Below, piece by piece: positions 8,438 through 38,799 of a stretch of DNA of 43,498 bases; position 1 is the first letter of the stretch; every line of letters begins with the position of its first letter. The DNA comes from Patescibacteria group bacterium. GTDB lineage: Bacteria; Patescibacteriota; Patescibacteriia; UBA2591; UBA6264. Location of the stretch: assembly GCA_018896315.1 (NCBI GenBank), contig JAHIMV010000081.1, positions 1-43,498 of the forward strand. The letters are read 5' to 3'. Both the position numbers and the translations under genes were made by a program. The notes beneath the pieces were generated by a model. The model was not told the origin of the DNA and did no database searches. It saw only the letters and a program-made list of their open reading frames with translations.

Positions 8438-8552
8438 ACGTAATACTAATCTACGAATGACATACGAATACTACGAATATTAGTATAATTAGTATCAATT
8501 CGTCCTAGACCCGTTCGGGACGGACTAGGGTATATTGGCATTGATTTTTTTT
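8438..8552. repeat. family D copy 2 (before nrdD) with a nested 27-nt GC hairpin
   Basis: ctacgaatgacatacgaatactacgaat / attagtataattagtatcaattcgt[..]atattggcattga. Insert at 8504..8530. Confidence 0.8.
8504..8530. repeat. 27-nt GC-rich hairpin nested in family D copy 2
   Basis: cctagacccgttcgggacggactaggg interrupts aattcgt|atatt, which is continuous in the other D copies. Confidence 0.7.
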
Positions 8553-11500
8553 ATGAAGCAACAAATAATTAGAATAAGAAGAAGAAACGGTCGTTTAGCT
8601 AAATTCGATCAAGAAAGAATTACCACAGCAATTTATCAGGCCGTTACAGCTGTTTCTGAAGAAGACGGCAAATTGTCCCAAAAATTATCTAATCAAGTAG
8701 TTAAAATAATTAGTAGGCGCTTTAAAGAGAGGGTTCCAACCGTAGAAGATGTTCAAGACGTTGTTGAAGAAGTTTTAATTCGTGCTGATTTAACAGAAAT
8801 TGCCAAAGCTTATATTATTTATCGCGAACAAAGGAGGAAACTTAGAGAAACAGTTAAGGTTACCAATGAAAGCTTGGGCATGGTGGATCAATACTTAAAA
8901 GAAGTTGATTGGGAAGTAAAGGAGAACGCCAACATGACATATTCTTTACAAGGGTTAAATAACTATATTTCTAATGGCGTAACAAAAAGATATTGGTTTG
9001 AAAAAGTTTATCCTTCAGAAATTAGAGAATCAGCTGAAGGAGGGGATTTTCATATTCATGACTTGGGGATTTTAGCGCCGTATACTTTTTTTGGCAAAGA
9101 AACAGTTGTTATTAAATTGAATGGAAAAATTAAGTTAGTTTCTTTAGAAAGTTTATATAACAATATAATTCAAAAAGAAGATTTTCTTAATAAAAAAGAT
9201 CAAGTTTTCGCTAAATATCCTCGTAATTTATTTATTTTAGATAAAGAAGGTTGGACCAAGGTTTCCCGATTAGTAAAAAAGAAAAAACAAAGAGAAATGC
9301 GTTTTATAAAGTCAGAACAGGGAAGGAGTGTTATTGTTACCGATAATCATCCTTTTATTGTAAAAAATCAAAAAAATGGGAAACAAAAAGAAATTTTGGC
9401 AAGTGAGGTTCAAGAAAAAGAACATTTATCTTTGAGTTGCTTTTTGCCTTCTTTACTTTCTTCTGAAAAATTATTTACTAAAAAAGAGATATATTTAGCT
9501 CAAGAATTAATAGATAAAGATTATCAAGATTTCTTTTTAGAAGGATATAAGTGGCAGGATTTTATAGAAAACTGGGGAGGATCTCTTAAGGTAAAAGGAA
9601 CCTTAAGTGTTTCTAATAAATCTAATAGTTTAGATAATTATTTTGAACTTTCTGAGGATTTTGGTTATTTGGTAGGAATTTTTATTGCAGAGGGCCATTA
9701 TCATAGCTGGCGGATGGAAATAACCTTAGGAGAAGAGAAAATAATAAAAAAGGTACAAAAAATTTGTTCCAATTTAGGAATAAGAACTTATATTAACAAG
9801 CACGAACAAACTAAGCGAATATCTATTAATTGCAGCACTTTAAAACTTGTTTTTGAAAAAGTCTTCCAAATAAAACCTTTTAGCCAAAATAAAACTTTAC
9901 CAATAGATATTCTAAATTACAATTTTGATTTTATAAAAGGGCTAATTGCTGGAATTATTGACGGAGATGGTAATGTTAGTACCCAAGGAAGCCAAATTAT
10001 TATTAGGACAGCTTCAAGAACGATGTTAGAACAAATGGCCATTTTATTGCAATTTTTTGGCATTATTTGTCGAGATAGAGCTATTGAAGGAGTTGGCAGT
10101 AAAAGGGTTTATAATGGCAGGGAGATTATTCAAAAATTTCCTCTTTACGGAATATCTTTTTCTAAAAAAGAAAAATTAGATTTACCTTCTTTTAAATATC
10201 AAAAAGCTAATGTAGCCCAGAAAAATTGGCGTGTAGAAGAATATGGTTGGAATAAAGTTTTAAACAATAAATCCACCTCTATAGCAGATGATTTTATTTA
10301 TGATATTACCACTGATTCACATACATTCCTTTGTAATGGCTTATTGGTTCATAATTGCGTGGGGTGGAGTTTAGAGGACATATTGCGCAAAGGATTCACT
10401 GGTGTTTATGGTAAAATTTCTTCAAAACCAGCCAAACATTTAAGAGTAGCTTTAGGCCAGTTAGTTAACTTTTTTTACACACTTCAAGGGGAAGCAGCAG
10501 GAGCAATTGCTGTTTCTTCTTTTGATACTTTTTTGGCTCCTTTTATTCGTTATGATAAATTAACTTATTCTCAAATAAAACAGGCCATGCAGGAGTTTAT
10601 GTTTAATTGTAATGTGCCAACTCGAGTTGGGTTTCAATGTATGTCAGAAGATACAGAAATTTTAACTAAAGATGGGTGGAAAAATTATCGTCAGGTTAAA
10701 AAAGGAAGCATTATTGCTACCTTTAACATTGAAAAGGGTTTTATTGAATATTTGCCAGTTAATAATGTTTTTACTAAGAAATACAAAGGAATAATGTATA
10801 ACTTAAAGAATAGAATTAGCGATCAATTAATTTCTCCAGAGCATAGGGTAGTGAGAAAAATGTTTAATTCAGAAAGCTATACTTTAGAAAAAATAGAAAA
10901 AGTTTTAAGCCTAAAATCACCGTTTATGGTGCCAGTGGGAAGTGAAGGAAATGTTTTAGGAGATGATAAATTAGATGAAAATATAGTTAAATTAACAGCT
11001 TGGTTAATAGCGGAAGGAACAATAGACAAAGGTAGACGAGGGAGTGGAAGAATTAGTATTTACCAATCAAAAGAAAAAAACCCTGAAAATTATGAAGAGA
11101 TTAATTTTTTGTGCCATAATTTAGACTTAAAATATACCGAAAGAATGCAAAGAGGATTAGGTGCTGATTGTAATGTTATTCGATTTAACGCAAATAGCAC
11201 TAGAAAAATTTTAAATTATTTTAATAGCAATAAAAATAAAGGTATTAAATTTATTCCAGACAGTATACTTAATTCAGATGTAGAAACTTCAAGATTGTTT
11301 TTAGAGACATATATTAAAGGTGATGGACATGATGGATGTAAAATCACCACTACTGAAGAAAAAATCAAAGATGGTTTGCTTCAAGTTATAGTTAATGCTG
11401 GTTATGGCGCTACGGTTTTAGTTCGCAATCCTGATAATGATCTGTCAAAAAAAGATAGATATATTATTAGACTCATTAAACATAAAGATACTTATATTAA

Positions 11501-14500
11501 TCAAATTAAAAAAGTTAATTATCAAGGAATTATTTGGTGTCCCAACACTAAAAATGAGACAGTTGTCGCGAGAAGAAAAGGAAAAGTATTTATTACTGGA
11601 AATACGCCTTTTACAAATATTACACTTGATTTAAATCCACCTAAAAATTTAGCTAAATTACCAGTGATTGTCGGAGGAAAAACTAAAAAAGAAAAATATG
11701 GAGATTTTCAAAAAGAAATGGATTTATTTAATAAAGCTTTTTACGAAGTAATTATGGAAGGAGATGCCACTCAAAGGGTTTTTACTTTTCCAATACCGAC
11801 CATCAATATTACCAAAGACTTTGACTGGGATAATCCTAATTACAAATCAATATGGGACGCAACGGCTAAATATGGGATTAATTATTTTTCTAACTTTATT
11901 AATTCAGAGTTAGATCCAGAAGATATCAGAAGTATGTGTTGCCGGTTGCGCTTAAACAATAAAGATCTTCATCATCGAGGGGGTGGGCTTTTTGGCTCAG
12001 CTCCATTAACAGGTTGTTATGATAAAGAAACAGAAATTTTGACTGAAAGCGGTTGGAAGTTTTTTAAAGATTTAACTAAAAACGAGAAAGTGTTTACCTT
12101 AGCTGAAAATAACGAAATTGAGTTACACAAGCCAAGAAAAATTTTCAAATATGATTATAAAGGGGAAATGTATCAATTTAAAGCTAAATCTTTGGATTTA
12201 TTAGTTACCCCAAACCACCGGATGGTGATAGACCAAAGATATAAAGATAAAAGAAGGTTTGTTGAAGCTAAAGACTTAAAGCCAGCTAATCATCGGATTC
12301 CTAAGCAGGGTGTATGGAAAAGAGATGAGATAGAACACTTTATTTTGCCTGGGATTGAATTTACAAAATACGGGAGACAAGGAATAACTCCTTATCAGGT
12401 ATTCAGAGAGGCTTTAAAAATAGAAATGGATAATTGGCTTGAATTTTTTGGATTTTGGTTGGCAGAGGGCTGTGCTGACAATAAAAATATTGCTAAACGT
12501 CATGGTTATAGGGTGATAATCACACAGGTTAATAAGAAGAAAAATAGAGAAATCCAAAAAGTTTTAGATTGTTTACCCTTTAATTATTATATAGAAAGAA
12601 AGATAAATTTTGTAATTTGTAATAAACAGCTTTGGACTTATTTACGGCAATTCGGAAATAAATATCAAAAGTTTATTCCAAAGGAGATTAAAAATTTAGG
12701 TAAGAGACAATTGAGAATTTTGTTTAATTGGATGGTTAAGGGCGATGGCCATATTAGAAAAACTACTGGACAGATTAATTATTGGACGTCTTCCGAAAAA
12801 TTAGCCGATGATTTGCAAGAAGTAATTCTAAAAATAGGATGGCTTGGCACTATAAGTGCTCGAAAGAGAAATATATCTCAAATTAGAGGCAGAAAAGTAA
12901 AGTCGGGCATTGTTTATACAATAGGAGTACAAAAATCAAAACATTATAGGTTAAGAAAAAATAGCATAAAAAAGATTTATTATAAGGATAAAGTGTATTG
13001 TTGTGAAGTAAGAAATCATACTGTTTTCGTAAGGAGAAATGGAAAAGTTAGTTGGTGCGGGAATTCAATTGGGGTAGTAACCATAAATCTTCCGCGAATT
13101 GGCTATTTAACCAAAACAAAAAAGGAATTTTTTAACAAATTGGAAAATTTAATGGATTTGGCCAAAGAAAGCTTAGAAATAAAAAGAAAAACTTTGGAAG
13201 ATTTTATTGAAAAAGATCTTTATCCTTATTCAAAATTTTATTTATCTGATATTAAGAAATTAAGAGGACAATATTGGGCAAATCATTTTTCAACCATTGG
13301 TCTGGTGGGAATGAACGAAGCTTTACTTAATTTTTTAAAAAAAGATATGATTTCAGATGAGGGGCAGAAATTTGCTCAAGAAGTTTTAGATTTTATGAAT
13401 CAACGTTTACTTGATTACCAGAAAGAAACTAAAAATATTTATAATTTAGAAGCAACACCGGCAGAGGGCACTAGCTATCGTTTAGCTAAAAAAGACAAAG
13501 AACATTATCCTCAGATTATTACGGCCGGAAAAGATGTTCCTTATTATACTAATTGTGTATCAGATGATACAGATATCTTAACTAAAGAAGGATGGAAAAG
13601 ATATAACGATGTAAAAGTCAGAGACGAAATTCTTACATTAAATATGGATAGGAAAATATTAGAGTATCAAAGGATATTAAATATTCATACTCAATATTTA
13701 GATAATAAACCAATGTTTAATATCAAATCTCAAAAACAAGATCAACTAATAACCCCAAATCATATGGTTGTATATGATGGAGACAGAAAAGGAAAATATA
13801 GTTTAGCAACACCTAGAAATTTACCTTGGAGAATAATTATTCCAATGGCAGGGAAAATAAATCAATACACTAAAGAGATAGATGATGACATTATAAGGAT
13901 GATAGGATGGATAATTACTGAAGGACATTTTGAAACAGATTGTAATGCAATTAGAATAACACAAGCTGAATGGTGTAATAAAAATAAATTTAAGGAGATA
14001 GGAGAGATATTAAAAAAACTTAAAGTTAAATTTAAAATACATGGAGATAAGAGAGGAAGATCAATTTTTAGAATTTCAGCTTCTGATGGAATAAAAATAA
14101 GAAGTAAGTATATATCAAACAAGCATATCCCAAGATGGTGCTTAAATGAATTAGACTATAGACAACTGAACATTTTATTGGAAACCATGATGAAAGGAGA
14201 CGGAAGTATAAGTAAACACTCTAAATATTTTTGTTCTGGTGATAAACAATTAATAGACGAATTTCAAGAACTATGCATTAAGACATGCAGAAGAGCCGTT
14301 ATATGTGATTATAGAGAAATGACTGCTTGCTATCATGCAGTTCCTTCTGATTTCCATCATACTGAAATAAATAAAAATAATATTAAAGAAATAAAACACA
14401 CAGGCATTGTTTGGTGTCCAGAAGTGGAGAACCATACTTTTGTAGCAAGAAGAAACGGGAAGCCGTTTATAACAGGTAATTCAACCCAATTACCAGTTGA

Positions 14501-16115
14501 TTACAATGGAGATTTATTTAGTGCTTTGGCCTTACAAGATAATTGTCAGACAAAATATACTGGAGGATGTATTGAGAAAGGGAATAAAGTTTTAACCAAC
14601 AAAGGGTTGTTGAATATAGAATATATAGTGAAGAATTTTAATAAACTCAAACCAATTAAGGTTTTAGGTTATAATATTAAAAAAGGAATCAGTGAATGGG
14701 ACAGCGTTGTTGATGCTGTTTTTGTTGATGTTAAGAAAAAAAATAAGATAAAAATAAAAGCAGAGAGAGGTTTAGATATTATTACTTCTGATTGGCATCC
14801 ATTCTTTGTTTTAGAAAGAATTAAAGTTAATTCAATTTGTCCTGTTTGTCAGCAAAAAGTAGAAAACATTAAAGGTTTTGCTAGCCATCTGGGGCGTAAC
14901 CCAAAGTGTAGGGAAGAGTATTTGTTAATGTTTAAATATCAAGTGTTAGAGAAAAGGGCGGATGAATTGAAAAAGGGCGACTATATTTTACAAAATTTTG
15001 ATAATTTATATCCAGAGAAATCTACGGCGTTAAATAACGATTTGATGTGGTTGATAGGTTTTTTCATCGGCGATGGGTGCATTTCAAAGTTTATAGATAA
15101 TAGAGGTGGGCACAATTTAGAGAAATATAGAGTTCGTTTTCATAGCGAAAACCAAAGAGCATTACAAAAAATTGTTAGGATAATTTCAGAGCATTTCCAT
15201 ACAGAAGTTAAAGTTATAAAAAACGACAAAAGAAGTAAATCTCTGAGAGAGGTTACTATATCTAAAAAGGTTGTTTTAGATTTTTTCTTCAAATATGGTT
15301 TTAATTCTGGCAAAAAGGTTTATAATATTTCTGTCCCTCAAAAAGTAAGGGAAAATTTTAACAAAAGTAATGTTTTTGCTTTTTTGTCTGGTCTAATAGA
15401 CAGTGATGGACATATTAGTAAAAGAGATGGTGATTTTGAATATCAGACGGTTTCTGATAAATTAGCCGAAGACATCTTAGAGATTTCTACTCGAGCAGGA
15501 TTAATGATTAGTAAGAGCCTAAAAGCAAGTAAAAGAAAAAATGAAGTTAATATATATAGATTGAGAATTCCGCGATACCAAATGACGAGGATAAAAGATA
15601 AGTTGAATGATTCAGTTAATTGTTCAAAAATTAAAACGAAGTTGTCGGATAGAAAAAAGCGTCAGCTTCCGGTAATAAGAGTAACACAGATTTCAAAAGT
15701 TGATATGAAAGATAACCAATTCTACGATTTAACAACAAAAAAGAATCACAATTATTTAGCAGGTAAAAATACTTTAGTTTTTATCCATAATACTGTTTTT
15801 CATGCTTTTTTAGGGGAAAGAATTTTTAATTCAGAATCAGTTAAAAGTTTAATTAAAAAAGTCTTTGTAAAATTTCGTCTCCCTTATTTTACTTTAACTC
15901 CTACATTTAGCATTTGTCCAACTCATAATTATATAAATGGCAAACATTTTACATGTCCTGAATGTGGAGAGAAAACAGAGGTTTATTCAAGGGTTGTTGG
16001 ATATTTACGTCCTATTCAACAATGGAATAAAGGCAAACAAGAAGAGTTTAAACAAAGAAAAGTGTTTGACGTAGAAAATAAAAAGAATCTGATTTCGTCA
16101 GAACTCCAAAATTAA
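8553..16115 (+). CDS. nrdD: anaerobic (class III) ribonucleoside-triphosphate reductase interrupted by five inteins
   Basis: First ATG at 8553 (the track start 8535 is a TTG inside a repeat). Exteins carry an ATP-cone N-terminus, FHIHDL, CVGWSL, TPFTNITLD, MCCRLRL, SIGVVTINLPRIG, YYTN-S-TQLPV, YTGG-TVFH, C-terminal CPECG and the glycyl-radical motif RVVGYLRP. They sum to about 707 aa. Confidence 0.95.
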   Translation: MKQQIIRIRRRNGRLAKFDQERITTAIYQAVTAVSEEDGKLSQKLSNQVVKIISRRFKERVPTVEDVQDVVEEVLIRADLTEIAKAYIIYREQRRKLRETVKVTNESLGMVDQYLKEVDWEVKENANMTYSLQGLNNYISNGVTKRYWFEKVYPSEIRESAEGGDFHIHDLGILAPYTFFGKETVVIKLNGKIKLVSLESLYNNIIQKEDFLNKKDQVFAKYPRNLFILDKEGWTKVSRLVKKKKQREMRFIKSEQGRSVIVTDNHPFIVKNQKNGKQKEILASEVQEKEHLSLSCFLPSLLSSEKLFTKKEIYLAQELIDKDYQDFFLEGYKWQDFIENWGGSLKVKGTLSVSNKSNSLDNYFELSEDFGYLVGIFIAEGHYHSWRMEITLGEEKIIKKVQKICSNLGIRTYINKHEQTKRISINCSTLKLVFEKVFQIKPFSQNKTLPIDILNYNFDFIKGLIAGIIDGDGNVSTQGSQIIIRTASRTMLEQMAILLQFFGIICRDRAIEGVGSKRVYNGREIIQKFPLYGISFSKKEKLDLPSFKYQKANVAQKNWRVEEYGWNKVLNNKSTSIADDFIYDITTDSHTFLCNGLLVHNCVGWSLEDILRKGFTGVYGKISSKPAKHLRVALGQLVNFFYTLQGEAAGAIAVSSFDTFLAPFIRYDKLTYSQIKQAMQEFMFNCNVPTRVGFQCMSEDTEILTKDGWKNYRQVKKGSIIATFNIEKGFIEYLPVNNVFTKKYKGIMYNLKNRISDQLISPEHRVVRKMFNSESYTLEKIEKVLSLKSPFMVPVGSEGNVLGDDKLDENIVKLTAWLIAEGTIDKGRRGSGRISIYQSKEKNPENYEEINFLCHNLDLKYTERMQRGLGADCNVIRFNANSTRKILNYFNSNKNKGIKFIPDSILNSDVETSRLFLETYIKGDGHDGCKITTTEEKIKDGLLQVIVNAGYGATVLVRNPDNDLSKKDRYIIRLIKHKDTYINQIKKVNYQGIIWCPNTKNETVVARRKGKVFITGNTPFTNITLDLNPPKNLAKLPVIVGGKTKKEKYGDFQKEMDLFNKAFYEVIMEGDATQRVFTFPIPTINITKDFDWDNPNYKSIWDATAKYGINYFSNFINSELDPEDIRSMCCRLRLNNKDLHHRGGGLFGSAPLTGCYDKETEILTESGWKFFKDLTKNEKVFTLAENNEIELHKPRKIFKYDYKGEMYQFKAKSLDLLVTPNHRMVIDQRYKDKRRFVEAKDLKPANHRIPKQGVWKRDEIEHFILPGIEFTKYGRQGITPYQVFREALKIEMDNWLEFFGFWLAEGCADNKNIAKRHGYRVIITQVNKKKNREIQKVLDCLPFNYYIERKINFVICNKQLWTYLRQFGNKYQKFIPKEIKNLGKRQLRILFNWMVKGDGHIRKTTGQINYWTSSEKLADDLQEVILKIGWLGTISARKRNISQIRGRKVKSGIVYTIGVQKSKHYRLRKNSIKKIYYKDKVYCCEVRNHTVFVRRNGKVSWCGNSIGVVTINLPRIGYLTKTKKEFFNKLENLMDLAKESLEIKRKTLEDFIEKDLYPYSKFYLSDIKKLRGQYWANHFSTIGLVGMNEALLNFLKKDMISDEGQKFAQEVLDFMNQRLLDYQKETKNIYNLEATPAEGTSYRLAKKDKEHYPQIITAGKDVPYYTNCVSDDTDILTKEGWKRYNDVKVRDEILTLNMDRKILEYQRILNIHTQYLDNKPMFNIKSQKQDQLITPNHMVVYDGDRKGKYSLATPRNLPWRIIIPMAGKINQYTKEIDDDIIRMIGWIITEGHFETDCNAIRITQAEWCNKNKFKEIGEILKKLKVKFKIHGDKRGRSIFRISASDGIKIRSKYISNKHIPRWCLNELDYRQLNILLETMMKGDGSISKHSKYFCSGDKQLIDEFQELCIKTCRRAVICDYREMTACYHAVPSDFHHTEINKNNIKEIKHTGIVWCPEVENHTFVARRNGKPFITGNSTQLPVDYNGDLFSALALQDNCQTKYTGGCIEKGNKVLTNKGLLNIEYIVKNFNKLKPIKVLGYNIKKGISEWDSVVDAVFVDVKKKNKIKIKAERGLDIITSDWHPFFVLERIKVNSICPVCQQKVENIKGFASHLGRNPKCREEYLLMFKYQVLEKRADELKKGDYILQNFDNLYPEKSTALNNDLMWLIGFFIGDGCISKFIDNRGGHNLEKYRVRFHSENQRALQKIVRIISEHFHTEVKVIKNDKRSKSLREVTISKKVVLDFFFKYGFNSGKKVYNISVPQKVRENFNKSNVFAFLSGLIDSDGHISKRDGDFEYQTVSDKLAEDILEISTRAGLMISKSLKASKRKNEVNIYRLRIPRYQMTRIKDKLNDSVNCSKIKTKLSDRKKRQLPVIRVTQISKVDMKDNQFYDLTTKKNHNYLAGKNTLVFIHNTVFHAFLGERIFNSESVKSLIKKVFVKFRLPYFTLTPTFSICPTHNYINGKHFTCPECGEKTEVYSRVVGYLRPIQQWNKGKQEEFKQRKVFDVENKKNLISSELQN
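9084..10355 (+). mobile_element. intein 1 of nrdD (424 aa, LAGLIDADG homing endonuclease); begins with Thr
   Basis: Inserted between ..DLGILAPY and CVGWSL. Block A TFFGKETVVIKLNG, block B VTDNHPF, LAGLIDADG motifs GYLVGIFIAEGH and LIAGIIDGDGN, C-terminus LLVHN followed by +1 Cys. Confidence 0.85.
10638..11603 (+). mobile_element. intein 2 of nrdD (322 aa, LAGLIDADG)
   Basis: Inserted between ..TRVGFQ and TPFTNITLD. Starts CMSEDTEILTKDGW, block B ISPEHRV, motifs LTAWLIAEGT and ETYIKGDGH, ends VARRKGKVFITGN followed by +1 Thr. Confidence 0.9.
12015..13064 (+). mobile_element. intein 3 of nrdD (350 aa, LAGLIDADG)
   Basis: Inserted between ..GSAPLTG and SIGVVTINLP. Starts CYDKETEILTESGW, block B VTPNHRM, motifs FFGFWLAEGC and NWMVKGDGH, ends FVRRNGKVSWCGN followed by +1 Ser. 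Confidence 0.9.
13554..14480 (+). mobile_element. intein 4 of nrdD (309 aa, LAGLIDADG)
   Basis: Inserted between ..VPYYTN and STQLPVDY. Starts CVSDDTDILTKEGW, block B ITPNHMV, motifs MIGWIITEGH and ETMMKGDGS, ends VARRNGKPFITGN followed by +1 Ser. Confidence 0.9.
14568..15791 (+). mobile_element. intein 5 of nrdD (408 aa, LAGLIDADG, with extra Cys/His knuckle)
   Basis: Inserted between ..QTKYTGG and TVFHAFLGE. Starts CIEKGNKVLTNKG, block B ITSDWHPF, motifs LIGFFIGDGC and LSGLIDSDGH, ends NTLVFIHN followed by +1 Thr. Contains CPVCQQKVENIKGFASHLGRNPKC. Confidence 0.9.
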
Positions 16116-16257
16116 AAAACACTTTAATTATAGGAACCTTTCGCTACGCTCAAGAACCCTGCTATTCGCTACGTTTATAGTAAGAACCTGCTTCGCAGAA
16201 CCTTGAAATTAAATATTATTATATAGAAGTTAAAGTATTTTAATTATAAAGTATTGT
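16116..16257 (+). repeat. family F element, expanded (nrdD-nrdG spacer)
   Basis: ggaacctttcgctacgctcaagaaccctg .. gtaagaacctgcttcgcagaaccttgaaattaaat .. ttttaattataaagtattgtATG. Confidence 0.7.
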
Positions 16258-17022
16258 ATGGTTTTTAGAGGATGGCAAAAAACCTCTTTGAATGAATGGC
16301 CGGGCAAAGTTTGTTCGGTTGTTTTTCTCCAGAGTTGTAATTTTCGTTGCTCTTTTTGTTATAATTACGATCTTGTTTTGAATCCCAAAAAATTACCTTT
16401 AATTAAAGAAAAACAAGTTTTAAATTATTGCAAAAAAAACAAGGATTTGCTTGACGGAGTAATGATTACCGGCGGTGAACCATTAAAAATCAAAAATCAA
16501 AAATCAATCCTTCGACTACGCTCAGGATTGATGGTGAGCAAAGTCGAACCATCAAAAATCAAAAATAATTTATTAGAATTTATCAAAAAAGTAAAGAAAT
16601 TAGGGTTAAAAGTTGGCGTGGAAACTAATGGTTCTAATCCTGAAATGATTGATTTTTTGATAAAAAATAAATTAGTTGATTATTTAGCTATGGATGTAAA
16701 GGCTCCTTTGATTCAAGAGAAGTACAATCAGATGACCGGCGTAAAAGTTGATTTGAAAAAAATAAAAAAAAGTATTAGAATTATTATTAATTCAAACATT
16801 GAATCTGAATTTCGCACTACTGTTATTCCAGGATTATTAAATGAGGACGATATTTTAAAAATTGCTAAAGAGATAAAAGGAGGAAAAAAATATTATTTAC
16901 AGCAGTTTCAAAAGGGCGAAACATTAGGACAACTACCTAAAATAGATGTTTATTCTCAGAAATGGTTTAAAGAAATAAAAGAGAAAATCAAAAATTTAAT
17001 TGATATAGAATTAAGAATCTAA
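16258..17022 (+). CDS. nrdG: anaerobic ribonucleotide reductase activating protein (radical SAM)
   Basis: CNFRCSFCYN (CxxxCxxC) and ITGGEP, immediately downstream of nrdD. Carries an 81-nt in-frame repeat insertion at 16486..16566. Confidence 0.9.
   Translation: MVFRGWQKTSLNEWPGKVCSVVFLQSCNFRCSFCYNYDLVLNPKKLPLIKEKQVLNYCKKNKDLLDGVMITGGEPLKIKNQKSILRLRSGLMVSKVEPSKIKNNLLEFIKKVKKLGLKVGVETNGSNPEMIDFLIKNKLVDYLAMDVKAPLIQEKYNQMTGVKVDLKKIKKSIRIIINSNIESEFRTTVIPGLLNEDDILKIAKEIKGGKKYYLQQFQKGETLGQLPKIDVYSQKWFKEIKEKIKNLIDIELRI
16486..16566 (-). repeat. 81-nt in-frame repeat insertion inside nrdG (50-nt hairpin element plus aaaatc flanks)
   Basis: 16504..16553 is the exact reverse complement of 34841..34890. 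Flanked by aaaaatcaaaaatcaaaaa / aaaaatcaaaaat. Read as KIKNQKSILRLRSGLMVSKVEPSKIKN. Confidence 0.9.
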
Positions 17023-17031
17023 ATTAATTAT

Positions 17032-18321
17032 ATGAAACAAAAAAAGTTCATATTTAAAAGCTGGTCATCTTCATTAATTATAATTGCTTTGATTAGTTTG
17101 ATTATTGGCGCTTTGGCTGGAACAATTTCTGGTTTCTATGCATCTAGTTTATTAACAAATACGGAAGGGTCTTTTTTATATCCTTTATTACAACAAAAGA
17201 TATTGCATCAATTTCAAGATAAAACAACAGATACAACAAAAGACTTATCAACATCTATTCTTAATAAAGAACAAACAGTTATAGAGGTTGTAGAAAAAGT
17301 CAATCCTTCAGTGGTGAGTATTGTTGTCACTAAGTATGTAACTCAGTACTATGGATTACAAGAATTTCCATTTGATGATTTTTTTAACTCACCGTTTTTT
17401 GAATTTCATGGCCCAAGTATCCCCACTCCTGTACCAAATGAAGAAAAACAAAAACAAGAAGTAGGAGGCGGTACTGGTTTTGTTATTTCTTCAGAAAAGG
17501 GTCTTATTTTAACCAATAAACATGTGGTTAGCGACGAAGAAGCCGAATATACTATTGTGACTAATGATGGAGAAAAATATGAAGCAGAAGTTTTAGCCAG
17601 AGATCCGTTTAATGACATCGCTGTTTTAAAGGTTGCAACTGATAATTTACCGGCAATTCAATTGGGTGATTCAGATCAATTAAAAATAGGAGAAACAGTT
17701 ATTGCTATTGGAAATGCTTTAGGGGAGTATAGAAACACAGTAACGAAGGGGGTAATTAGTGGGATTAGCCGTCGGGTTGTTGCTAGCGGAGCAGGATATT
17801 CAGAAGTCTTAGAGGGTGTTATTCAAACTGATGCAGCAATTAATTTTGGCAACTCAGGGGGTCCTTTAATTAATCTTCAGGGAGAGGTAATAGGTATTAA
17901 TACTGCAATTAGTCGCCAAGGACAATTAATCGGATTTGCTATTCCATCAAATCAAGCCAAACAAGTGGTTGAAAGTGTGGAAAAATATGGGAAAATAGTC
18001 AGGCCATTTTTAGGAATAAGATATCTTATAATTAATCAAGAAATGGCCAATGTAAACAAATTACCATTTGATTATGGGGCATTAATTGTCAGAGGCCAGA
18101 CAATAACAGATTTAGCGGTTATTCCTGGTTCGCCAGCTAATAAAGCGGGTTTAGTGGAAAACGACATTATTTTAGAGATTAATAATGAAAAAATTACAGA
18201 AATAAAGTCTTTAGCAAAGGAGATTCAAAAATACCAACCTGGCGAAGAAATTGAATTAAAAATTTATCATCAAGGCGAAGAAAAAATAATTAAAGTTGTT
18301 TTAGAAGAGTATAAAGAGTAG
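17032..18321 (+). CDS. htrA: HtrA/DegP-family serine protease with PDZ domain
   Basis: N-terminal TM anchor, trypsin-like core with TNKHVV (His), NDIAVLK (Asp), GNSGGPL (Ser), and a C-terminal PDZ-like region (GSPANKAGL). Confidence 0.9.
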   Translation: MKQKKFIFKSWSSSLIIIALISLIIGALAGTISGFYASSLLTNTEGSFLYPLLQQKILHQFQDKTTDTTKDLSTSILNKEQTVIEVVEKVNPSVVSIVVTKYVTQYYGLQEFPFDDFFNSPFFEFHGPSIPTPVPNEEKQKQEVGGGTGFVISSEKGLILTNKHVVSDEEAEYTIVTNDGEKYEAEVLARDPFNDIAVLKVATDNLPAIQLGDSDQLKIGETVIAIGNALGEYRNTVTKGVISGISRRVVASGAGYSEVLEGVIQTDAAINFGNSGGPLINLQGEVIGINTAISRQGQLIGFAIPSNQAKQVVESVEKYGKIVRPFLGIRYLIINQEMANVNKLPFDYGALIVRGQTITDLAVIPGSPANKAGLVENDIILEINNEKITEIKSLAKEIQKYQPGEEIELKIYHQGEEKIIKVVLEEYKE

Positions 18322-18327
18322 AAAATT

Positions 18328-19420
18328 ATGCAGGAATTAATTTCAGAATTAGAAAATTTTAAAAAGAGGCTCCGCAAAGTCGGAGACTATCTTTGACCTT
18401 GTTAAAAATAAACAAGAAATTGAAAAAATTGAAAAAGAGATGGCTGAACCGGATTTTTGGCAGGACCGGGTTAAAGCAGAAGATAAATCAAGAGAATTAG
18501 ATAGATTAAAAGAGGATTTGTTCAAATGGGAAAAAATTCAAAAATCAATAAATGATTGTTTAGAGATTGCCAAATTAGACAAGGATGATCAATCAGTAAA
18601 CTTAAAAAAGGAAATTGAAAAACAATTTTCCATTATTGAACGTCAACTTAATGATTTTGAGAAGTTGACTTTTTTAAATAATAAATATGACAAAGAAAAT
18701 GCCTTTGTTTCTATTTTTGCCGGAGCTGGAGGAGTTGACGCTCAGGACTGGACAGAAATGCTTTTAAGAATGTATTTAAGATTTGCTGAGAAAAAAGGTT
18801 GGCAAGCACAGATAATAGATCATTCTAAAGGAACAGAGGCAGGCATGAAAAGCGTCACCATAGAGGTTAATGGTAAATACGCCTATGGATTTTTAAAAGG
18901 AGAGGCTGGTGTTCATCGTTTGGTGAGGATTTCACCTTTTGATGCAGAACAAATGCGCCATACTTCATTTGCTTTAGTAGAGGTTTTACCAGAGATAAAA
19001 GAGACTGAAATAGAAATTAATCCTGATGATTTAAGAATTGATACTTTTTTGTCTTCTGGTCCTGGTGGTCAGAATATGCAGAAGAATGAAACTGCGGTTA
19101 GAATAGTTCATTTGCCGACAAAAATTACAGTTAGCTGTCAATCACAAAGGTCACAAACCCAGAATAAAGAAAGAGCTTTGCAGATTTTAGAATCAAAACT
19201 TTTTCAATATGCCCAGGCAGAAAAAGAAGAAGAAAAAGCTCGTTTGCGCGGTGAGTTTAAATCTGCTTCTTGGGGTAATCAGATTCGTTCATATGTTATT
19301 CACCCATATCATATGGTTAAAGATTTAAGAACAGGCTATGAGACTAGTAATGTTGATGATATTTTAAATGGAAATTTAGATGAAATAATTGAAAGTTATT
19401 TTCGTTGGAAAAAAGAATAA
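18328..19420 (+). CDS. prfB: peptide chain release factor 2, requires +1 programmed frameshift (join 18328..18393, 18395..19420)
   Basis: Frame 0 reads MQELISELENFKKRLRKVGDYL and stops at CTT TGA C (TGA 18394..18396). The +1 frame continues DLVKNKQEIEKIEKEMAEPDFW into ORF 18440..19420. SPF and GGQ motifs are present. Confidence 0.9.
18381..18397 (+). other. RF2 autoregulatory +1 frameshift site (GGAG .. CUU UGA C)
   Basis: cggagactatCTTTGAC: an internal SD-like GGAG lies upstream of the slippery CUU-UGA-C, as in the classic prfB site. Confidence 0.85.
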
Positions 19421-22030: not shown

Positions 22031-23122
22031 ATGGCAAAAGAATTTGAAAAAGATTTTCCTTGGTCTTTATCTAAAACTAAAACAGAAGGCTTGAATAAAG
22101 AATTTAATTTAAGCCAATTGTCCAAACGTCATCAATATTTTAAAGCCAAAGTTGGAAAAGAAATTGAAGGACTAAAGCAATATCTTGATAAGAATACTTT
22201 TATTGCTTATTGGTTAGGTAAAAAGAATTCAGGAAAAGGCACTTATTCAAAATTAATGTTAGAAATTTTTGGCAAGGATAGAATTAATCATGTTTCTGTT
22301 GGAGACGTAGTGAGAGAGGCGTGTGAAAAACTAAAAGATCCGAAACAAAGAGAAGAGATAGTTGATTATTTGAAAAAAAATTATCGGGGATATATTTCTG
22401 TTGATGAAGCAGTAGAAAGCATCTTAAATAGAGACACAAAAAGCCTTTTACCCACAGAATTTATTCTTACTTTAGTTAAAAGAGAAATTGATAAAATGCC
22501 CAAAAAGAGCCTTTTTATTGATGGTTTTCCTCGTAATATGGATCAGGTCTCTTATTCTTTGTATTTCAGAGATTTAATCAATTACAGGGAAGATCCAGAT
22601 GTTTTTATTGGAATTGATATCCCTGAGCAAGTAATTGATCAAAGAATGAAATCAAGAGTTGTTTGTCCTAAATGTCATACGCCAAGGAGTTTGAAATTAT
22701 TGCCAACTCAAGAGGTCGGTTATGATCCAGAAAAAAAGGAATTTTATTTAATGTGCGATGATCCAGATTGTGATAAAGCAAGAATGACTGCTAAAGAAGG
22801 AGATAATTTAGGCATTGAATCAATTAGAGAAAGATTAGAGTTAGACGAAAAATTAATAAATAAAATATTTTCTTTACACGGAGTACCAAAGGTTTTATTA
22901 AGAAACGCTTTACCTGTTTCTGAAGCAGAAAAATTAGTAGATAAGTATGAAATAACACCAGAATATGATTATGAATTAATTGAAGAAAATAAAGTACAGA
23001 CGAAAGAAAAACCATGGACAGTAAAAGATGATCAGGGAAGGGAAATTTATAGTCTTTTGGCTCCGCCAGTAGTAGTTTCTTTAATTAAACAGTTGTATAA
23101 CATTTTTGTTGAAAAGAATTAA
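22031..23122 (+). CDS. atypical adenylate-kinase-fold nucleoside monophosphate kinase (363 aa)
   Basis: P-loop GKKNSGKGT, DGFPR motif, Zn-type LID CPKCH..CDDPDC, plus N-terminal (~60 aa) and C-terminal (~100 aa) extensions absent from the canonical adk at 38128. Confidence 0.6.
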   Translation: MAKEFEKDFPWSLSKTKTEGLNKEFNLSQLSKRHQYFKAKVGKEIEGLKQYLDKNTFIAYWLGKKNSGKGTYSKLMLEIFGKDRINHVSVGDVVREACEKLKDPKQREEIVDYLKKNYRGYISVDEAVESILNRDTKSLLPTEFILTLVKREIDKMPKKSLFIDGFPRNMDQVSYSLYFRDLINYREDPDVFIGIDIPEQVIDQRMKSRVVCPKCHTPRSLKLLPTQEVGYDPEKKEFYLMCDDPDCDKARMTAKEGDNLGIESIRERLELDEKLINKIFSLHGVPKVLLRNALPVSEAEKLVDKYEITPEYDYELIEENKVQTKEKPWTVKDDQGREIYSLLAPPVVVSLIKQLYNIFVEKN

Positions 23123-38127: not shown

Positions 38128-38799
38128 ATGATTAAAAAGAATTTTAATTTAATTATTCTGGGACCAGCTGGTTCAGGCAAGGGAACACAAGCTCATTTGT
38201 TAATCAAAGAGTTTAGTATGAAAACAATTGAGATGGGAGAATTGGTCAGAGGAGCAGCCAAGGAAAAAACAAAACAGGCTAAATTAATTGCTTGGATGCA
38301 TGACGTGGGCATGCATTTTTCAGATGATTTTATTTTTAATCTTTTTGAAAAAAACGTTAAAAAGCTTAATAAAAAATATAAGCTTTTAGTTGACGGATAT
38401 CCAAGAACAGCTGGACAAGCTTGGGATTTGCAAAGAATTTTAAAAAAATATTATAAAAACAGGCCAAGCTTAGCCATTTGGATCAATGTTAGCGATAAAG
38501 AATCTTTAAAAAGATTGCTGAGTCGAGCCCTTTGTTCTAAATGTGGCAAGATTTTTCCTAATCGAAAAATTAAAAAATGCCCAGATTGCGGCGGTTTAGT
38601 TAAAGTCAGGGGTTATGATAAAGACAAAAAAGCAATTCAAAAAAGATTAGATTGGTTTCATGATCATGTAGTTCCAGCTATTGAGTTTTATAAACAGCGT
38701 AAAATGTTAGTTCAGGTTAATGGAGAGCAGTCAGTAGAAAAAGTTTTTAAAGAAACTTTAAGAAAAATAAATCGATACCAATATACGAATGCATACTAA
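38128..38799 (+). CDS. adk: adenylate kinase (Zn LID); last 9 codons lie in a family D repeat
   Basis: ILGPAGSGKGTQA, VDGYPRT, LID CSKCGK..CPDCGG. GAGGA Shine-Dalgarno sequence upstream. Confidence 0.9.
   Translation: MIKKNFNLIILGPAGSGKGTQAHLLIKEFSMKTIEMGELVRGAAKEKTKQAKLIAWMHDVGMHFSDDFIFNLFEKNVKKLNKKYKLLVDGYPRTAGQAWDLQRILKKYYKNRPSLAIWINVSDKESLKRLLSRALCSKCGKIFPNRKIKKCPDCGGLVKVRGYDKDKKAIQKRLDWFHDHVVPAIEFYKQRKMLVQVNGEQSVEKVFKETLRKINRYQYTNAY

What the first reader, a model, noticed from the sequence alone, without database searches (positions are those of the whole stretch)
8553..16115. Five inteins in one nrdD gene
The 2520-codon ORF resolves into about 707 aa of class III RNR extein plus five Hint/LAGLIDADG inteins (424, 322, 350, 309 and 408 aa; about 72 percent of the ORF). 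Each sits exactly at a highly conserved motif: ..APY|CVGWSL, ..VGFQ|TPFTNIT, ..APLTG|SIGVVTINLP, ..YYTN|STQLP, ..YTGG|TVFH. Each has a nucleophilic +1 residue (C, T, S, S, T). To my knowledge genes with more than three or four inteins are rare, so this is near the upper extreme. A functional enzyme needs five successful splicing events, in an organism where nrdD is probably the only route to dNTPs (inference).
Basis: partly seen in the sequence, partly recalled or inferred. Interest (0 to 1): 0.8.

Follow-up and report, generated by a model that had tools for sequence, protein, structure and literature searches.

The report
Five inteins in one nrdD gene
A small-genome bacterium encodes its oxygen-sensitive ribonucleotide reductase as a 2520-residue precursor, and five self-splicing, mobile protein inserts must cut themselves out to yield the 707-residue enzyme, which ties the highest intein count I could find for any single gene.

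Summary
ORF 8553-16115 (+) encodes 2520 aa: a 707-aa class III ribonucleotide reductase (NrdD) plus five in-frame inserts of 424, 322, 350, 309 and 408 aa.

- **Host gene:** with the inserts removed, the protein matches the NrdD equivalog model end to end in one stretch (1062 bits). nrdG follows directly.
- **Insertion sites:** relatives carry an allelic intein at each of the five sites. Other relatives have the site empty, with the predicted junction. A syntenic relative lacks exactly inteins 3 and 4.
intein 1 starts with Thr. Inteins 2-4 end in Gly-Asn and carry a block-F Cys. Both are conserved family traits under purifying selection, not decay.
- **Recent mobility:** intein 5 is 99.3% identical to the relative's copy while the flanks are 86% identical, with short co-conversion tracts.
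- **Rarity:** of 74 full-length NrdD genes from species-representative genomes, 63 have no intein and the maximum is four. The largest count in the papers I could search is five (Anaeramoeba Prp8, 2023). At least three other metagenomic NrdDs also carry five.

Verdict: real, at the known extreme, but a new member of a known kind. Splicing itself is untested.

The parts
8553..16115 (+). nrdD precursor ORF: 2520 codons plus stop, made of six extein segments and five inteins
8553..9083 (+). Extein segment E1 (aa 1-177): ATP-cone plus the start of the NrdD core, ending ...HIHDLGILAPY
   Evidence: Pfam ATP-cone residues 7-95. NF006126 end-to-end match after splicing.
9084..10355 (+). Intein 1 (424 aa), at the NrdD 'Y|C' site (extein position 177). 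Terminal and block residues: Thr1; block B TDNH; block F Asp; ends His-Asn; +1 Cys. LAGLIDADG motifs: IFIAEGH and IIDGDGN.
   Evidence: Pfam Intein_splicing 49 bits and LAGLIDADG_3 55 bits. 57 allelic inteins. dN/dS 0.118 against L002.
10356..10637 (+). Extein segment E2 (extein aa 178-271): CVGWSL...VGFQ
   Evidence: dN/dS 0.039
10638..11603 (+). Intein 2 (322 aa), at extein site 271. Terminal and block residues: Cys1; block B SPEH; block F Cys (WCP); ends Gly-Asn; +1 Thr. LAGLIDADG motifs: WLIAEGT and YIKGDGH.
   Evidence: Paralog of inteins 3 and 4. About 48 alleles. AF2 pLDDT 89.7 and Foldseek match to TliVMA intein, E 4.5e-17. dN/dS 0.096.
11604..12014 (+). Extein segment E3 (extein aa 272-408). 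It contains the SMCCRLRL loop at extein 381-388.
12015..13064 (+). Intein 3 (350 aa), at extein site 408. Terminal and block residues: Cys1; TPNH; block F Cys (YCC); ends Gly-Asn; +1 Ser. LAGLIDADG motifs: FWLAEGC and MVKGDGH.
   Evidence: TIGR01445 intein_Nterm 26.4 bits, above its cut-off. Pfam LAGLIDADG_3 42 bits. Exactly absent from the syntenic relative L002. 19 alleles.
13065..13553 (+). Extein segment E4 (extein aa 409-571): SIGVVTINLP...PYYTN
   Evidence: dN/dS 0.039
13554..14480 (+). Intein 4 (309 aa), at extein site 571. Terminal and block residues: Cys1; TPNH; block F Cys (WCP); ends Gly-Asn; +1 Ser. LAGLIDADG motifs: WIITEGH and MMKGDGS. This is the rarest of the five sites.
   Evidence: Paralog of intein 2 (29% identity, E 1e-37). 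Exactly absent from L002. Only 3 alleles in the relatives, at 41-42% identity.
14481..14567 (+). Extein segment E5 (29 aa, extein 572-600): STQLPV...KYTGG
14568..15791 (+). Intein 5 (408 aa), at extein site 600. Terminal and block residues: Cys1; block B SDWH; block F Asp; ends His-Asn; +1 Thr. LAGLIDADG motifs: FFIGDGC and LIDSDGH. It carries a small Cys-rich insert after block B.
   Evidence: Pfam Intein_splicing 60 bits and LAGLIDADG_3 54 bits. PI-PfuI (1DQ3) E 9.5e-21. 99.3% nt identity to the L002 copy against 86% in the flanks.
15792..16115 (+). Extein segment E6 (extein aa 601-707, plus stop). It contains the CPTH...CPEC metal site and the RVVGY glycyl-radical motif.
16258..17022 (+). 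nrdG, the radical-SAM activase of NrdD (254 aa)
   Evidence: TIGR02495 NrdG2 180.6 bits against a cut-off of 131. Pfam Radical_SAM and Fer4_12.

Best explanation
This is a functional nrdD-nrdG operon of a low-GC, small-genome bacterium. The closest named relatives are Patescibacteria/CPR. The catalytic subunit gene has been invaded at five conserved active-site motifs by five homing-endonuclease-containing inteins from three families:
- a Thr1 ... His-Asn family (intein 1);
- three diverged paralogs of a 'Cys1 / block-F Cys / Gly-Asn' family (inteins 2, 3 and 4);
- a PI-PfuI-like family (intein 5).

The gene is translated as one precursor of 2520 aa (roughly 290 kDa).

Inferred mechanism, not shown here:
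1. Each intein folds into its own HINT domain and excises itself by the class 1 pathway.
2. That pathway is an N-O or N-S acyl shift at residue 1, transesterification to the +1 Cys/Thr/Ser, cyclisation of the terminal Asn, and an acyl shift back to a peptide bond.
3. The result is the 707-aa NrdD, which NrdG then activates.

The inteins persist and spread as selfish elements. Their LAGLIDADG nucleases cut intein-less alleles and the intein is copied in by repair.
For: Shown by tools:
1. Exact architecture, and an end-to-end NrdD match only after removing the five blocks.
2. Hint plus LAGLIDADG identity for all five inserts.
3. All five sites are occupied by allelic inteins in other NrdDs. The same sites are empty in yet others, with the predicted junction.
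4. A syntenic relative, L002 (88-96% nt identity), lacks precisely nt 12015-13064 and 13554-14480.
5. Purifying selection acts on the inteins. dN/dS against L002 is 0.118 for intein 1, 0.096 for intein 2 and 0.118 for intein 5, compared with 0.04-0.06 for the long extein segments.
6. Catalytic positions are conserved within families.
   - Intein-1 family, among 57 close alleles: position 1 (56 Thr, 1 Ser), T86, H89, D407, H423 and N424 are each conserved at 95% or more.
   - Intein-1 family, in 72 cluster representatives at 50% identity: position 1 is Thr 36, Ser 24, Cys 11, Gly 1. All 64 with both ends mapped have +1 Cys. Apart from that single Gly, only nucleophiles occur, which argues that position 1 is used as one.
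   - Gly-Asn family, across five NrdD sites: C1, the block-B His and the terminal Gly-Asn are invariant. The block-F Cys is more than 90% conserved.
7. Intein 5 differs at 9 of 1224 nt from the L002 copy. The flanks differ at 12 of 87 and 36 of 268 nt. There is no mismatch in the 35 nt upstream of the intein and one in the first 38 nt downstream. This is the pattern expected of recent homing with co-conversion.
8. All ten LAGLIDADG motifs keep their acidic residue.
9. An independent NCBI contig, GCA_022013275.1 JAKLQQ010000180.1, matches nt 11611-18794 at 99.92%. No intragenic repeat is longer than 34 nt at 85% or less.

From the literature:
- An intein with penultimate Gly splices well (Bethlehem gp51; PMC5050341).
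- About 5% of functional inteins lack the penultimate His, and Cys is the second commonest block F:4 residue (PMC4031507).
- An S1T mutant of the Tli pol-2 intein splices (PMC2807308).
Against: - No experiment shows that any of these five inteins splices or that the enzyme is active.
- Thr is a poorer nucleophile than Cys or Ser, and no natural Thr1 intein had been recorded as of 2009.
- Intein 2 lacks His at both the penultimate position and the block-F position where inteins 3 and 4 have His (NET versus NHT).
- No single independent record spans all five inteins. The NCBI contig starts 8 nt after the end of intein 2, which could reflect strain heterogeneity at that point.
- Pfam's Intein_splicing model does not reach threshold on inteins 2, 3 and 4.
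Confidence: 0.82

Rival explanations
1. At least one of the five inteins is splicing-dead, most plausibly the Thr1 intein 1 or the His-poor intein 2. The gene would then be a decaying pseudogene and the cell would get dNTPs another way, through salvage from a host or another RNR.
For: Non-canonical residues: Thr1 in intein 1, and Gly at the penultimate position of inteins 2-4. Intein 2 has Glu where its paralogs have the block-F His. Patescibacteria have reduced genomes and are thought to depend on host organisms (titles and abstracts listed).
Against: The same residues are conserved across dozens of diverged alleles. dN/dS is 0.10-0.12 in the inteins and 0.04-0.06 in the long extein segments. 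The 7.5-kb frame is uninterrupted in roughly 31% GC DNA. nrdG is intact next door. There is published precedent for functional Gly-Asn inteins and for a spliced S1T mutant.
Confidence: 0.06
2. The five-intein gene is an assembly consensus of co-existing strains with different intein complements, for example one strain with inteins 1, 2 and 5 and another with 3, 4 and 5. No single cell would carry all five.
For: Close relatives do differ in intein content. L002 has inteins 1, 2 and 5 only. L004 and L013 have only the site-271 intein. The independent NCBI contig breaks 8 nt after intein 2. Intein 5 is nearly identical between two otherwise 86-92% identical lineages.
Against: The window is 99.92% identical to the NCBI contig across inteins 3, 4 and 5 and nrdG. 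Divergence from L002 is spread through the whole left part of the gene, at 81-96% identity per 150-nt bin. The window's inteins 1 and 2 are therefore not copied from an L002-like strain. The switch to high identity coincides with the boundaries of intein 5 to within tens of bases, as homing predicts. There are no long intragenic repeats to mislead an assembler. Other public NrdDs independently carry five inteins.
Confidence: 0.06
3. The inteins are not merely parasitic. Some act as conditional-splicing switches. For example, a disulfide between Cys1 and the block-F Cys in inteins 2-4, or slow Thr1 chemistry in intein 1, could ensure that the oxygen-sensitive enzyme is completed only under reducing, anoxic conditions.
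For: Inteins 2-4 all pair Cys1 with a conserved block-F Cys. The host enzyme is the anaerobic (class III) ribonucleotide reductase by family assignment, and that class is described as oxygen-sensitive (abstract of PMC8365446, listed). Redox-responsive and stress-responsive splicing has been published for other inteins (titles and abstracts of PMC6195587 and PMC7360933). All five sites lie in strictly conserved motifs.
Against: Nothing here tests conditionality. Block-F Cys is a common class 1 variant. Close relatives do without these inteins. Intein 5 carries a homing signature. The HE domains look intact. All of this fits selfish persistence without any host benefit.
Confidence: 0.1

Closest known systems
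Anaeramoeba ignava BMAN Prp8 with five inteins (PMC10710043, 2023)
   Same: Five inteins in one essential, highly conserved protein. This is the highest count I found in the literature.
   Different: A eukaryotic spliceosomal protein, not a bacterial RNR. The intein families are unrelated.
Trichodesmium erythraeum ribonucleotide reductase gene with four inteins (Liu, Yang and Meng 2003, as cited in PMC10710043)
   Same: A bacterial RNR catalytic-subunit gene carrying several inteins. The 2023 paper cites it as the previous maximum of four.
   Different: Four inteins plus three group II introns, according to the cited title. From memory, not tested here, it is a class II RNR. The present gene is class III, has five inteins, and showed no Rfam intron family at gathering threshold anywhere in the window.
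Other metagenomic NrdD precursors with five insertions: P0007 (2631 aa), P0105 (2983 aa) and P0109 (2517 aa)
   Same: Same host protein and the same number of inserts. Some sites are shared: 177, 271, 408 and 600.
   Different: They use different site combinations, including sites 223, 230, 331, 366, 382/383 and 543. None has the site-571 intein. Their extein identity to the window is about 31-66%. I know of no paper describing them.
PI-PfuI, the Pyrococcus furiosus RNR intein endonuclease (PDB 1DQ3)
   Same: Closest solved relative of intein 5 (E 9.5e-21). Block B (WHPFFVL), both LAGLIDADG motifs and the C-terminal FYDLT...NYLAG...HN blocks all align.
   Different: It sits in a different RNR class and at a different site. 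Intein 5 has an extra Cys-rich segment after block B.
Mycobacteriophage Bethlehem gp51 (RDF) intein with penultimate Gly (PMC5050341)
   Same: A class 1 intein ending Gly-Asn. It was shown to splice, and the Gly-to-His change slowed it. This is a precedent for inteins 2-4.
   Different: Unrelated host protein. No evidence of sequence relationship to the NrdD Gly-Asn family.
Haloarchaeal MCM (cdc21) with four intein sites (PMC10643990)
   Same: One essential gene with several closely spaced intein insertion sites and variable occupancy among relatives.
   Different: Archaeal replication helicase. Maximum of four. NrdD shows about 12 sites in my sample.

Membership tests
Intein (class 1 protein-splicing element) | In-frame insertion within a conserved host protein that is absent from orthologs, with host sequence continuous across the site | tested here: met
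   The spliced sequence matches NF006126 in one stretch. Relatives with each site empty read xY|C, FQ|TP, TG|SI, TN|ST and GG|TV. L002 lacks exactly inteins 3 and 4.
Intein (class 1 protein-splicing element) | Nucleophile (Cys, Ser or Thr) at intein position 1 | tested here: met
   The five first residues are T, C, C, C, C. Thr1 is unusual. Within its family, position 1 is Thr 36, Ser 24, Cys 11, Gly 1 of 72 representatives.
Intein (class 1 protein-splicing element) | Block B (T/S)xxH motif | tested here: met
   TDNH, SPEH, TPNH, TPNH and SDWH at residues 86, 66, 65, 67 and 74 of the respective inteins. The His is invariant in the Gly-Asn family and at least 95% conserved in the intein-1 family.
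Intein (class 1 protein-splicing element) | C-terminal Asn followed by a +1 Cys, Ser or Thr | tested here: met
   All five end in Asn. The +1 residues are C, T, S, S, T.
Intein (class 1 protein-splicing element) | Penultimate His (block G:6) | tested here: not met
   Met for inteins 1 and 5 (His-Asn). Not met for inteins 2, 3 and 4 (Gly-Asn). This residue is not obligatory: about 5% of functional inteins lack it and a Gly-Asn intein splices. Gly is invariant in this family.
Intein (class 1 protein-splicing element) | HINT fold | tested here: met
   Pfam Intein_splicing is above threshold for inteins 1 and 5. The profile of the family containing inteins 2-4 hits solved inteins 6ZGQ, 2CW7 and 7QSU. 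The AF2 model of intein 2 matches the TliVMA, PI-SceI and PI-PfuI inteins. Inteins 3 and 4 are covered only through full-length paralogy to intein 2.
Intein (class 1 protein-splicing element) | Demonstrated self-excision with extein ligation | not testable with these tools
   Needs expression with western blot or mass spectrometry.
Class 3 intein (block-F Cys nucleophile, WCT triplet) | No N-terminal nucleophile, together with the Trp(B:12)-Cys(F:4)-Thr(G:5) triplet | tested here: not met
   Inteins 2-4 do have Cys at block F, and inteins 2 and 4 have Thr before Gly-Asn. All three keep an invariant Cys1, and they have Val, Val and Met rather than Trp two residues after the block-B His. They are better read as class 1 with Cys at F:4.
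LAGLIDADG homing endonuclease (double-motif, intein-nested) | Two LAGLIDADG motifs, each keeping the catalytic acidic residue | tested here: met
   All ten motifs keep the acidic residue: IAEGH/IDGDGN, IAEGT/IKGDGH, LAEGC/VKGDGH, ITEGH/MKGDGS and IGDGC/IDSDGH. Pfam LAGLIDADG_3 is above threshold for inteins 1, 3 and 5 and weak for 2 and 4. I-DmoI matches by profile and by fold.
LAGLIDADG homing endonuclease (double-motif, intein-nested) | Site-specific cleavage of the intein-less allele (homing) | not testable with these tools
   Indirect support only. Intein 5 is 99.3% identical between lineages whose flanks are 86% identical, with short co-conversion tracts.
NrdD (class III anaerobic ribonucleoside-triphosphate reductase) | Full-length match to the curated equivalog model above its cut-off | tested here: met
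   NF006126 scores 1062 bits against a cut-off of 548. TIGR02487 scores 561 bits against 326.
NrdD (class III anaerobic ribonucleoside-triphosphate reductase) | C-terminal glycyl-radical motif, active-site Cys loop, and an adjacent NrdG activase | tested here: met
   RVVGY at extein 667-671, SMCCRLRL at 381-388, and CPTH...CPEC at 642-658. nrdG lies at 16258-17022 (TIGR02495, 180.6 bits). The assignment of individual catalytic residues rests on my knowledge of the E. coli and T4 enzymes and was not tested.

The most novel reading that the evidence does not exclude
The intein load is partly adaptive and gates enzyme maturation.
- The three paralogous inteins that pair Cys1 with a conserved block-F Cys and a penultimate Gly, together with the Thr1 intein sitting on the active-site Cys, would act as a post-translational gate sensitive to redox state or oxygen.
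- The oxygen-labile glycyl-radical enzyme would then be completed only under anoxic, reducing conditions.

A lesser but better-supported novelty is that the NrdD 'Y|C' intein family naturally uses Thr as its first-step nucleophile. A 2010 survey of InBase had never seen a natural Thr1 intein.
Probability: 0.1. Interest if true: 0.75.

Novelty: new member of a known kind. Interest (0 to 1): 0.5.

Why it matters
- **Intein load on an essential-type enzyme.** Five independent splicing reactions must all succeed for each active subunit. That makes this a natural test case for folding and splicing order in a precursor that is 72% intein.
- **A family spreading within one gene.** One intein family occupies five different sites of the same gene family. 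Three of its members sit in this one gene. This bears on how homing endonucleases acquire new targets.
- **Recent mobility in a little-studied lineage.** The near-identical intein 5 in two diverged lineages, and the presence or absence of inteins 3 and 4 among close relatives, show ongoing mobility in what is probably a Patescibacteria lineage.
- **Material for intein engineering.** The Thr1 family and the Gly-Asn / block-F-Cys family are natural, conserved departures from textbook intein chemistry.

Tried and rejected
1. **Synthetic poly-intein query.** To pull out NrdDs with six or more inteins, I built a query of the extein plus representatives of up to 12 sites.
   - The 4985-aa version returned only P0105 (2983 aa) and an unrelated RNA-polymerase-like protein.
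   - The tool seems to keep only hits at least about 55% as long as the query. That is my inference, from 1393 aa being the shortest hit.
   - The result shows no NrdD longer than 2983 aa. It does not exclude a compact six-intein NrdD of about 2500-2700 aa.
2. **Class 3 mechanism for inteins 2-4.** Rejected: Cys1 is invariant and there is no block-B Trp.
3. **Class 2 (KlbA-like) reading of intein 1.** Considered because of +1 Cys and a weak residue-1 nucleophile. Not favoured: position 1 is Thr, Ser or Cys in 71 of 72 representatives and never Ala, and the penultimate residue is His, not Ser.
4. **Alternative boundary for intein 1 that would avoid Thr1.** Impossible without breaking the conserved Y|C junction.
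5. **Literature on Thr1 inteins, Mja RNR inteins, and inteins in CPR.** These searches gave nothing specific.
6. **Upstream regulatory element.** No terminator-like site. Promoter-like hits are only weakly above shuffled expectation. The intergenic region is not conserved in L002.
7. **Rfam.** Only four tRNAs in the window and no intron or riboswitch family.
8. **Intragenic repeats as a source of misassembly.** None longer than 34 nt at 85% identity or less.
Full report
**1. The observation**

The window has one open frame at 8535-16115 on the + strand, with the first ATG at 8553. That gives 2520 codons. Mapping the junction strings gives five inserts:

| Intein | Residues | Nucleotides | Length |
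|---|---|---|---|
| 1 | 178-601 | 9084-10355 | 424 aa |
| 2 | 696-1017 | 10638-11603 | 322 aa |
| 3 | 1155-1504 | 12015-13064 | 350 aa |
| 4 | 1668-1976 | 13554-14480 | 309 aa |
| 5 | 2006-2413 | 14568-15791 | 408 aa |

The remaining extein is 707 aa.

**2. The host protein**

Pfam on the precursor finds NRDD in six pieces, an ATP-cone, LAGLIDADG_3 and Intein_splicing.

With the five blocks removed, the 707-aa protein matches the NCBIfam NrdD equivalog NF006126. The score is 1062 bits against a cut-off of 548. The match is a single stretch covering residues 6-694 and profile positions 3-683 of 684. It also matches solved NrdD structures 8P23 and 4COI. A single uninterrupted profile match is a strong test that all ten boundaries are right.

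The extein keeps the SMCCRLRL loop (381-388), the CPTH...CPEC site (642-658) and the RVVGY glycyl-radical motif (667-671).

The next gene, 16258-17022, is the NrdG activase (TIGR02495, 180.6 bits against a cut-off of 131).

The rest of the window is ordinary bacterial chromosome. It holds TIM, class II aldolase, DnaJ, MetRS, RF, ComEC, EF-Tu, the S10-spc ribosomal operon, SecY, Adk, Map and four tRNAs. GC content is about 31%. The closest named relatives are Patescibacteria, including Nealsonbacteria and 'Patescibacteria group bacterium'.

**3. Are the inserts inteins?**

- *Inteins 1 and 5.* Both pass Pfam Intein_splicing and LAGLIDADG_3. Intein 5 matches PI-PfuI (1DQ3) at E 9.5e-21.
- *Inteins 2, 3 and 4.* They are weak in Pfam. 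They are full-length paralogs of one another (27-29% identity, E 1e-23 to 1e-37). A 15-sequence family profile (A1) hits solved inteins 6ZGQ, 2CW7 and 7QSU, and also I-DmoI.
- *Structure model.* An AlphaFold model of intein 2 has mean pLDDT 89.7 and pTM 0.89. Its best PDB matches are homing-endonuclease inteins: TliVMA at E 4.5e-17, then PI-SceI and PI-PfuI. I-DmoI matches the central domain.

The splicing positions are as follows:

| Intein | Residue 1 | Block B | Block F:4 | Last two residues | +1 |
|---|---|---|---|---|---|
| 1 | Thr | TDNH | Asp | His-Asn | Cys |
| 2 | Cys | SPEH | Cys | Gly-Asn | Thr |
| 3 | Cys | TPNH | Cys | Gly-Asn | Ser |
| 4 | Cys | TPNH | Cys | Gly-Asn | Ser |
| 5 | Cys | SDWH | Asp | His-Asn | Thr |

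All ten LAGLIDADG motifs keep their acidic residue.

**4. Comparative evidence for the sites**

A search of the 5.8-billion-protein collection returned 120 multi-intein NrdDs. I aligned each to the spliced extein, allowing long insertions at a fixed cost.

- About 12 insertion sites appear in the NrdD family: extein positions 177, 223, 230, 271, 331, 366, 382/383, 408, 543, 570/571, 600 and 639.
- Each of the window's five sites (177, 271, 408, 571, 600) is occupied by allelic inteins elsewhere.
- Each is also empty in many other relatives. Across the empty sites the junctions read xY|C, FQ|TP, TG|SI, TN|ST and GG|TV.
- The best natural control is L002 (ENA ERZ24794676). It is syntenic and 88-96% identical in DNA. 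It aligns with the window across the whole gene except that nt 12015-13064 and 13554-14480 are missing. Those are exactly inteins 3 and 4.

**5. Are the odd residues signs of decay?**

They are not.

*Intein 1 family.*
- Among 57 close alleles (39-92% identity to the window's copy), 56 start with Thr and one with Ser. T86, H89, D407, H423 and N424 are each conserved at 95% or more.
- An exhaustive HMMER search of 1.84 billion cluster representatives extends this. In 72 representatives, position 1 is Thr 36, Ser 24, Cys 11 and Gly 1. The +1 residue is Cys in all 64 with both ends mapped.
- Seven hosts that my quick extein screen had missed were all NrdD by Pfam.
- Apart from the single Gly, position 1 varies only among the three nucleophilic residues. 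That is what selection for a nucleophile predicts.

*Gly-Asn family.*
- It occurs at five different NrdD sites (223, 271, 408, 570 and 639).
- C1, the block-B His and the terminal Gly-Asn are invariant. The block-F Cys is more than 90% conserved.

*Selection.* Against L002, dN/dS is 0.118 for intein 1, 0.096 for intein 2 and 0.118 for intein 5. The long extein segments give 0.04-0.06.

*Literature.*
- A natural Gly-Asn intein splices, and changing the Gly to His slows it (PMC5050341).
- About 5% of functional inteins lack the penultimate His, and Cys is the second most common F:4 residue (PMC4031507).

I found no later paper describing natural Thr1 inteins. My literature access is partial.

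**6. Evidence of recent mobility**

Intein 5 differs from the L002 copy at 9 of 1224 nt (99.3% identity, dS 0.026). The flanking segments E5 and E6 are 86% identical, with dS 0.49 and 0.67. The mismatch map shows no difference in the 35 nt upstream of the intein and one in the first 38 nt downstream. These short tracts are what co-conversion during homing produces.

The closest species representatives, L004 and L013, carry only the site-271 intein. Intein content therefore turns over quickly in this lineage.

**7. Is the assembly sound?**

- An NCBI MAG contig, GCA_022013275.1 JAKLQQ010000180.1, matches window 11611-18794 with 6 mismatches in 7184 nt. It covers inteins 3, 4 and 5 and nrdG.
- L002 independently shows inteins 1, 2 and 5 in one gene.
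- There are no intragenic repeats longer than 34 nt at 85% identity or less.
- The weak point is that no independent record spans all five. The NCBI contig begins 8 nt after intein 2 ends, which hints at a branching assembly graph there.

**8. How extreme is five?**

- *Literature.* A 2023 PNAS paper calls five inteins in Anaeramoeba Prp8 remarkable. It states that four was the previous maximum, citing the Trichodesmium RNR gene.
- *Species representatives.* Of 74 full-length NrdD loci among the 80 best loci returned from 185,579 species-representative genomes, 63 have no intein, 9 have one, 1 has two and 1 has four.
- *Long metagenomic NrdDs.* Among the 120 hits, which are biased towards long proteins, 70 have two inserts, 40 three, 7 four and 3 five (P0007, P0105 and P0109).
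- *Search for more.* A probe for longer ones found nothing above 2983 aa.

The window ties the known maximum but is not unique.

**9. Mechanism**

Shown: the anatomy, homology, conservation, selection and mobility signatures above.

Inferred: one 2520-aa precursor is made. Each HINT domain then excises itself by the class 1 route. Thr1 performs an N-O acyl shift in intein 1, and Cys1 performs an N-S shift in inteins 2-5. The product is the 707-aa enzyme, which NrdG then activates.

The order of the five splicing events, their rates and any redox dependence are unknown. Whether NrdD is this organism's only RNR cannot be judged from 43 kb.

**10. Verdict**

The finding is real and the reading is supported. 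It is a new member of a known kind, multi-intein RNR genes, and sits at the recorded extreme. Three features are worth follow-up: a conserved natural Thr1 intein family, one intein family occupying five sites of the same gene, and a clear recent-homing signature.

Noticed in passing
window 9084-9086 (first codon of intein 1, ACT); relatives P0001-P0268: The intein family at the NrdD 'Y|C' site mostly starts with Thr. Among close alleles 56 of 57 do. Among 72 cluster representatives the count is Thr 36, Ser 24, Cys 11, Gly 1, and all 64 with both ends mapped have +1 Cys. A 2010 paper states that no natural Thr1 intein was then known.
   Followed up: yes
window 10638-11603, 12015-13064, 13554-14480; relatives: One intein family occupies five different NrdD sites. 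Its signature is Cys1, a block-F Cys, an RRxGK motif and a terminal Gly-Asn. Three diverged members sit in this one gene. This suggests repeated retargeting of the endonuclease within a single host gene family.
   Followed up: partly
window 14533-15829 compared with L002 about 10004-11300: Intein 5 is 99.3% identical between two lineages whose flanking extein DNA is 86% identical. The mismatch-free tracts are about 35 nt on the 5' side and about 8-38 nt on the 3' side. This looks like a recent homing or horizontal-transfer event.
   Followed up: yes
L001 position 1 = window 11611: The near-identical NCBI MAG contig (GCA_022013275.1) starts 8 nt after the 3' end of intein 2. This could be an assembly-graph break caused by strain variation in intein content.
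   Followed up: no
window about 14832-14921 (intein 5 residues 89-118): There is a small Cys-rich segment, CPVCQQKVENIKGFASHLGRNPKC, inserted after block B of intein 5. Pfam gives weak hits to DUF7501 and a C2H2-type zinc finger. It may be an extra DNA-binding or metal-binding module.
   Followed up: no
relatives P0013, P0016, P0022, P0105 and others, extein site 382/383: Many relatives carry inteins inside the SM|C|CRLRL loop. That loop should hold the thiyl-radical Cys, by my recollection of E. coli NrdD. One group aligns as beginning with Pro (PLGGNEK...THN|C), or with Cys-Pro if the junction is shifted by one residue. Their class was not resolved.
   Followed up: no
window 8452-8480: There are three direct copies of TACGAAT in the nrdD upstream region, followed by an imperfect GC-rich palindrome at about 8496-8527. 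The region is not conserved in the syntenic relative L002.
   Followed up: partly
window 22031-23122 and 38128-38799: There are two adenylate-kinase-like genes. The first (363 aa) matches only part of the ADK profile and has a long N-terminal extension. The second (223 aa) is a normal adk in the usual place after secY.
   Followed up: no
L003, L004 versus L009, L013: The closest species-representative relatives (80-89% identity in the best segment) are labelled 'uncultured Gammaproteobacteria bacterium'. Equally close ones are labelled 'Patescibacteria group bacterium'. The first label is probably a mis-assignment in those third-party assemblies.
   Followed up: no
P0121: This is a 2858-aa protein carrying RNA polymerase beta and beta-prime domains, LAGLIDADG_3 and a Peptidase_M23 domain. 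It surfaced as a weak hit to the synthetic intein query. It may be an intein-bearing fused RNAP subunit.
   Followed up: no
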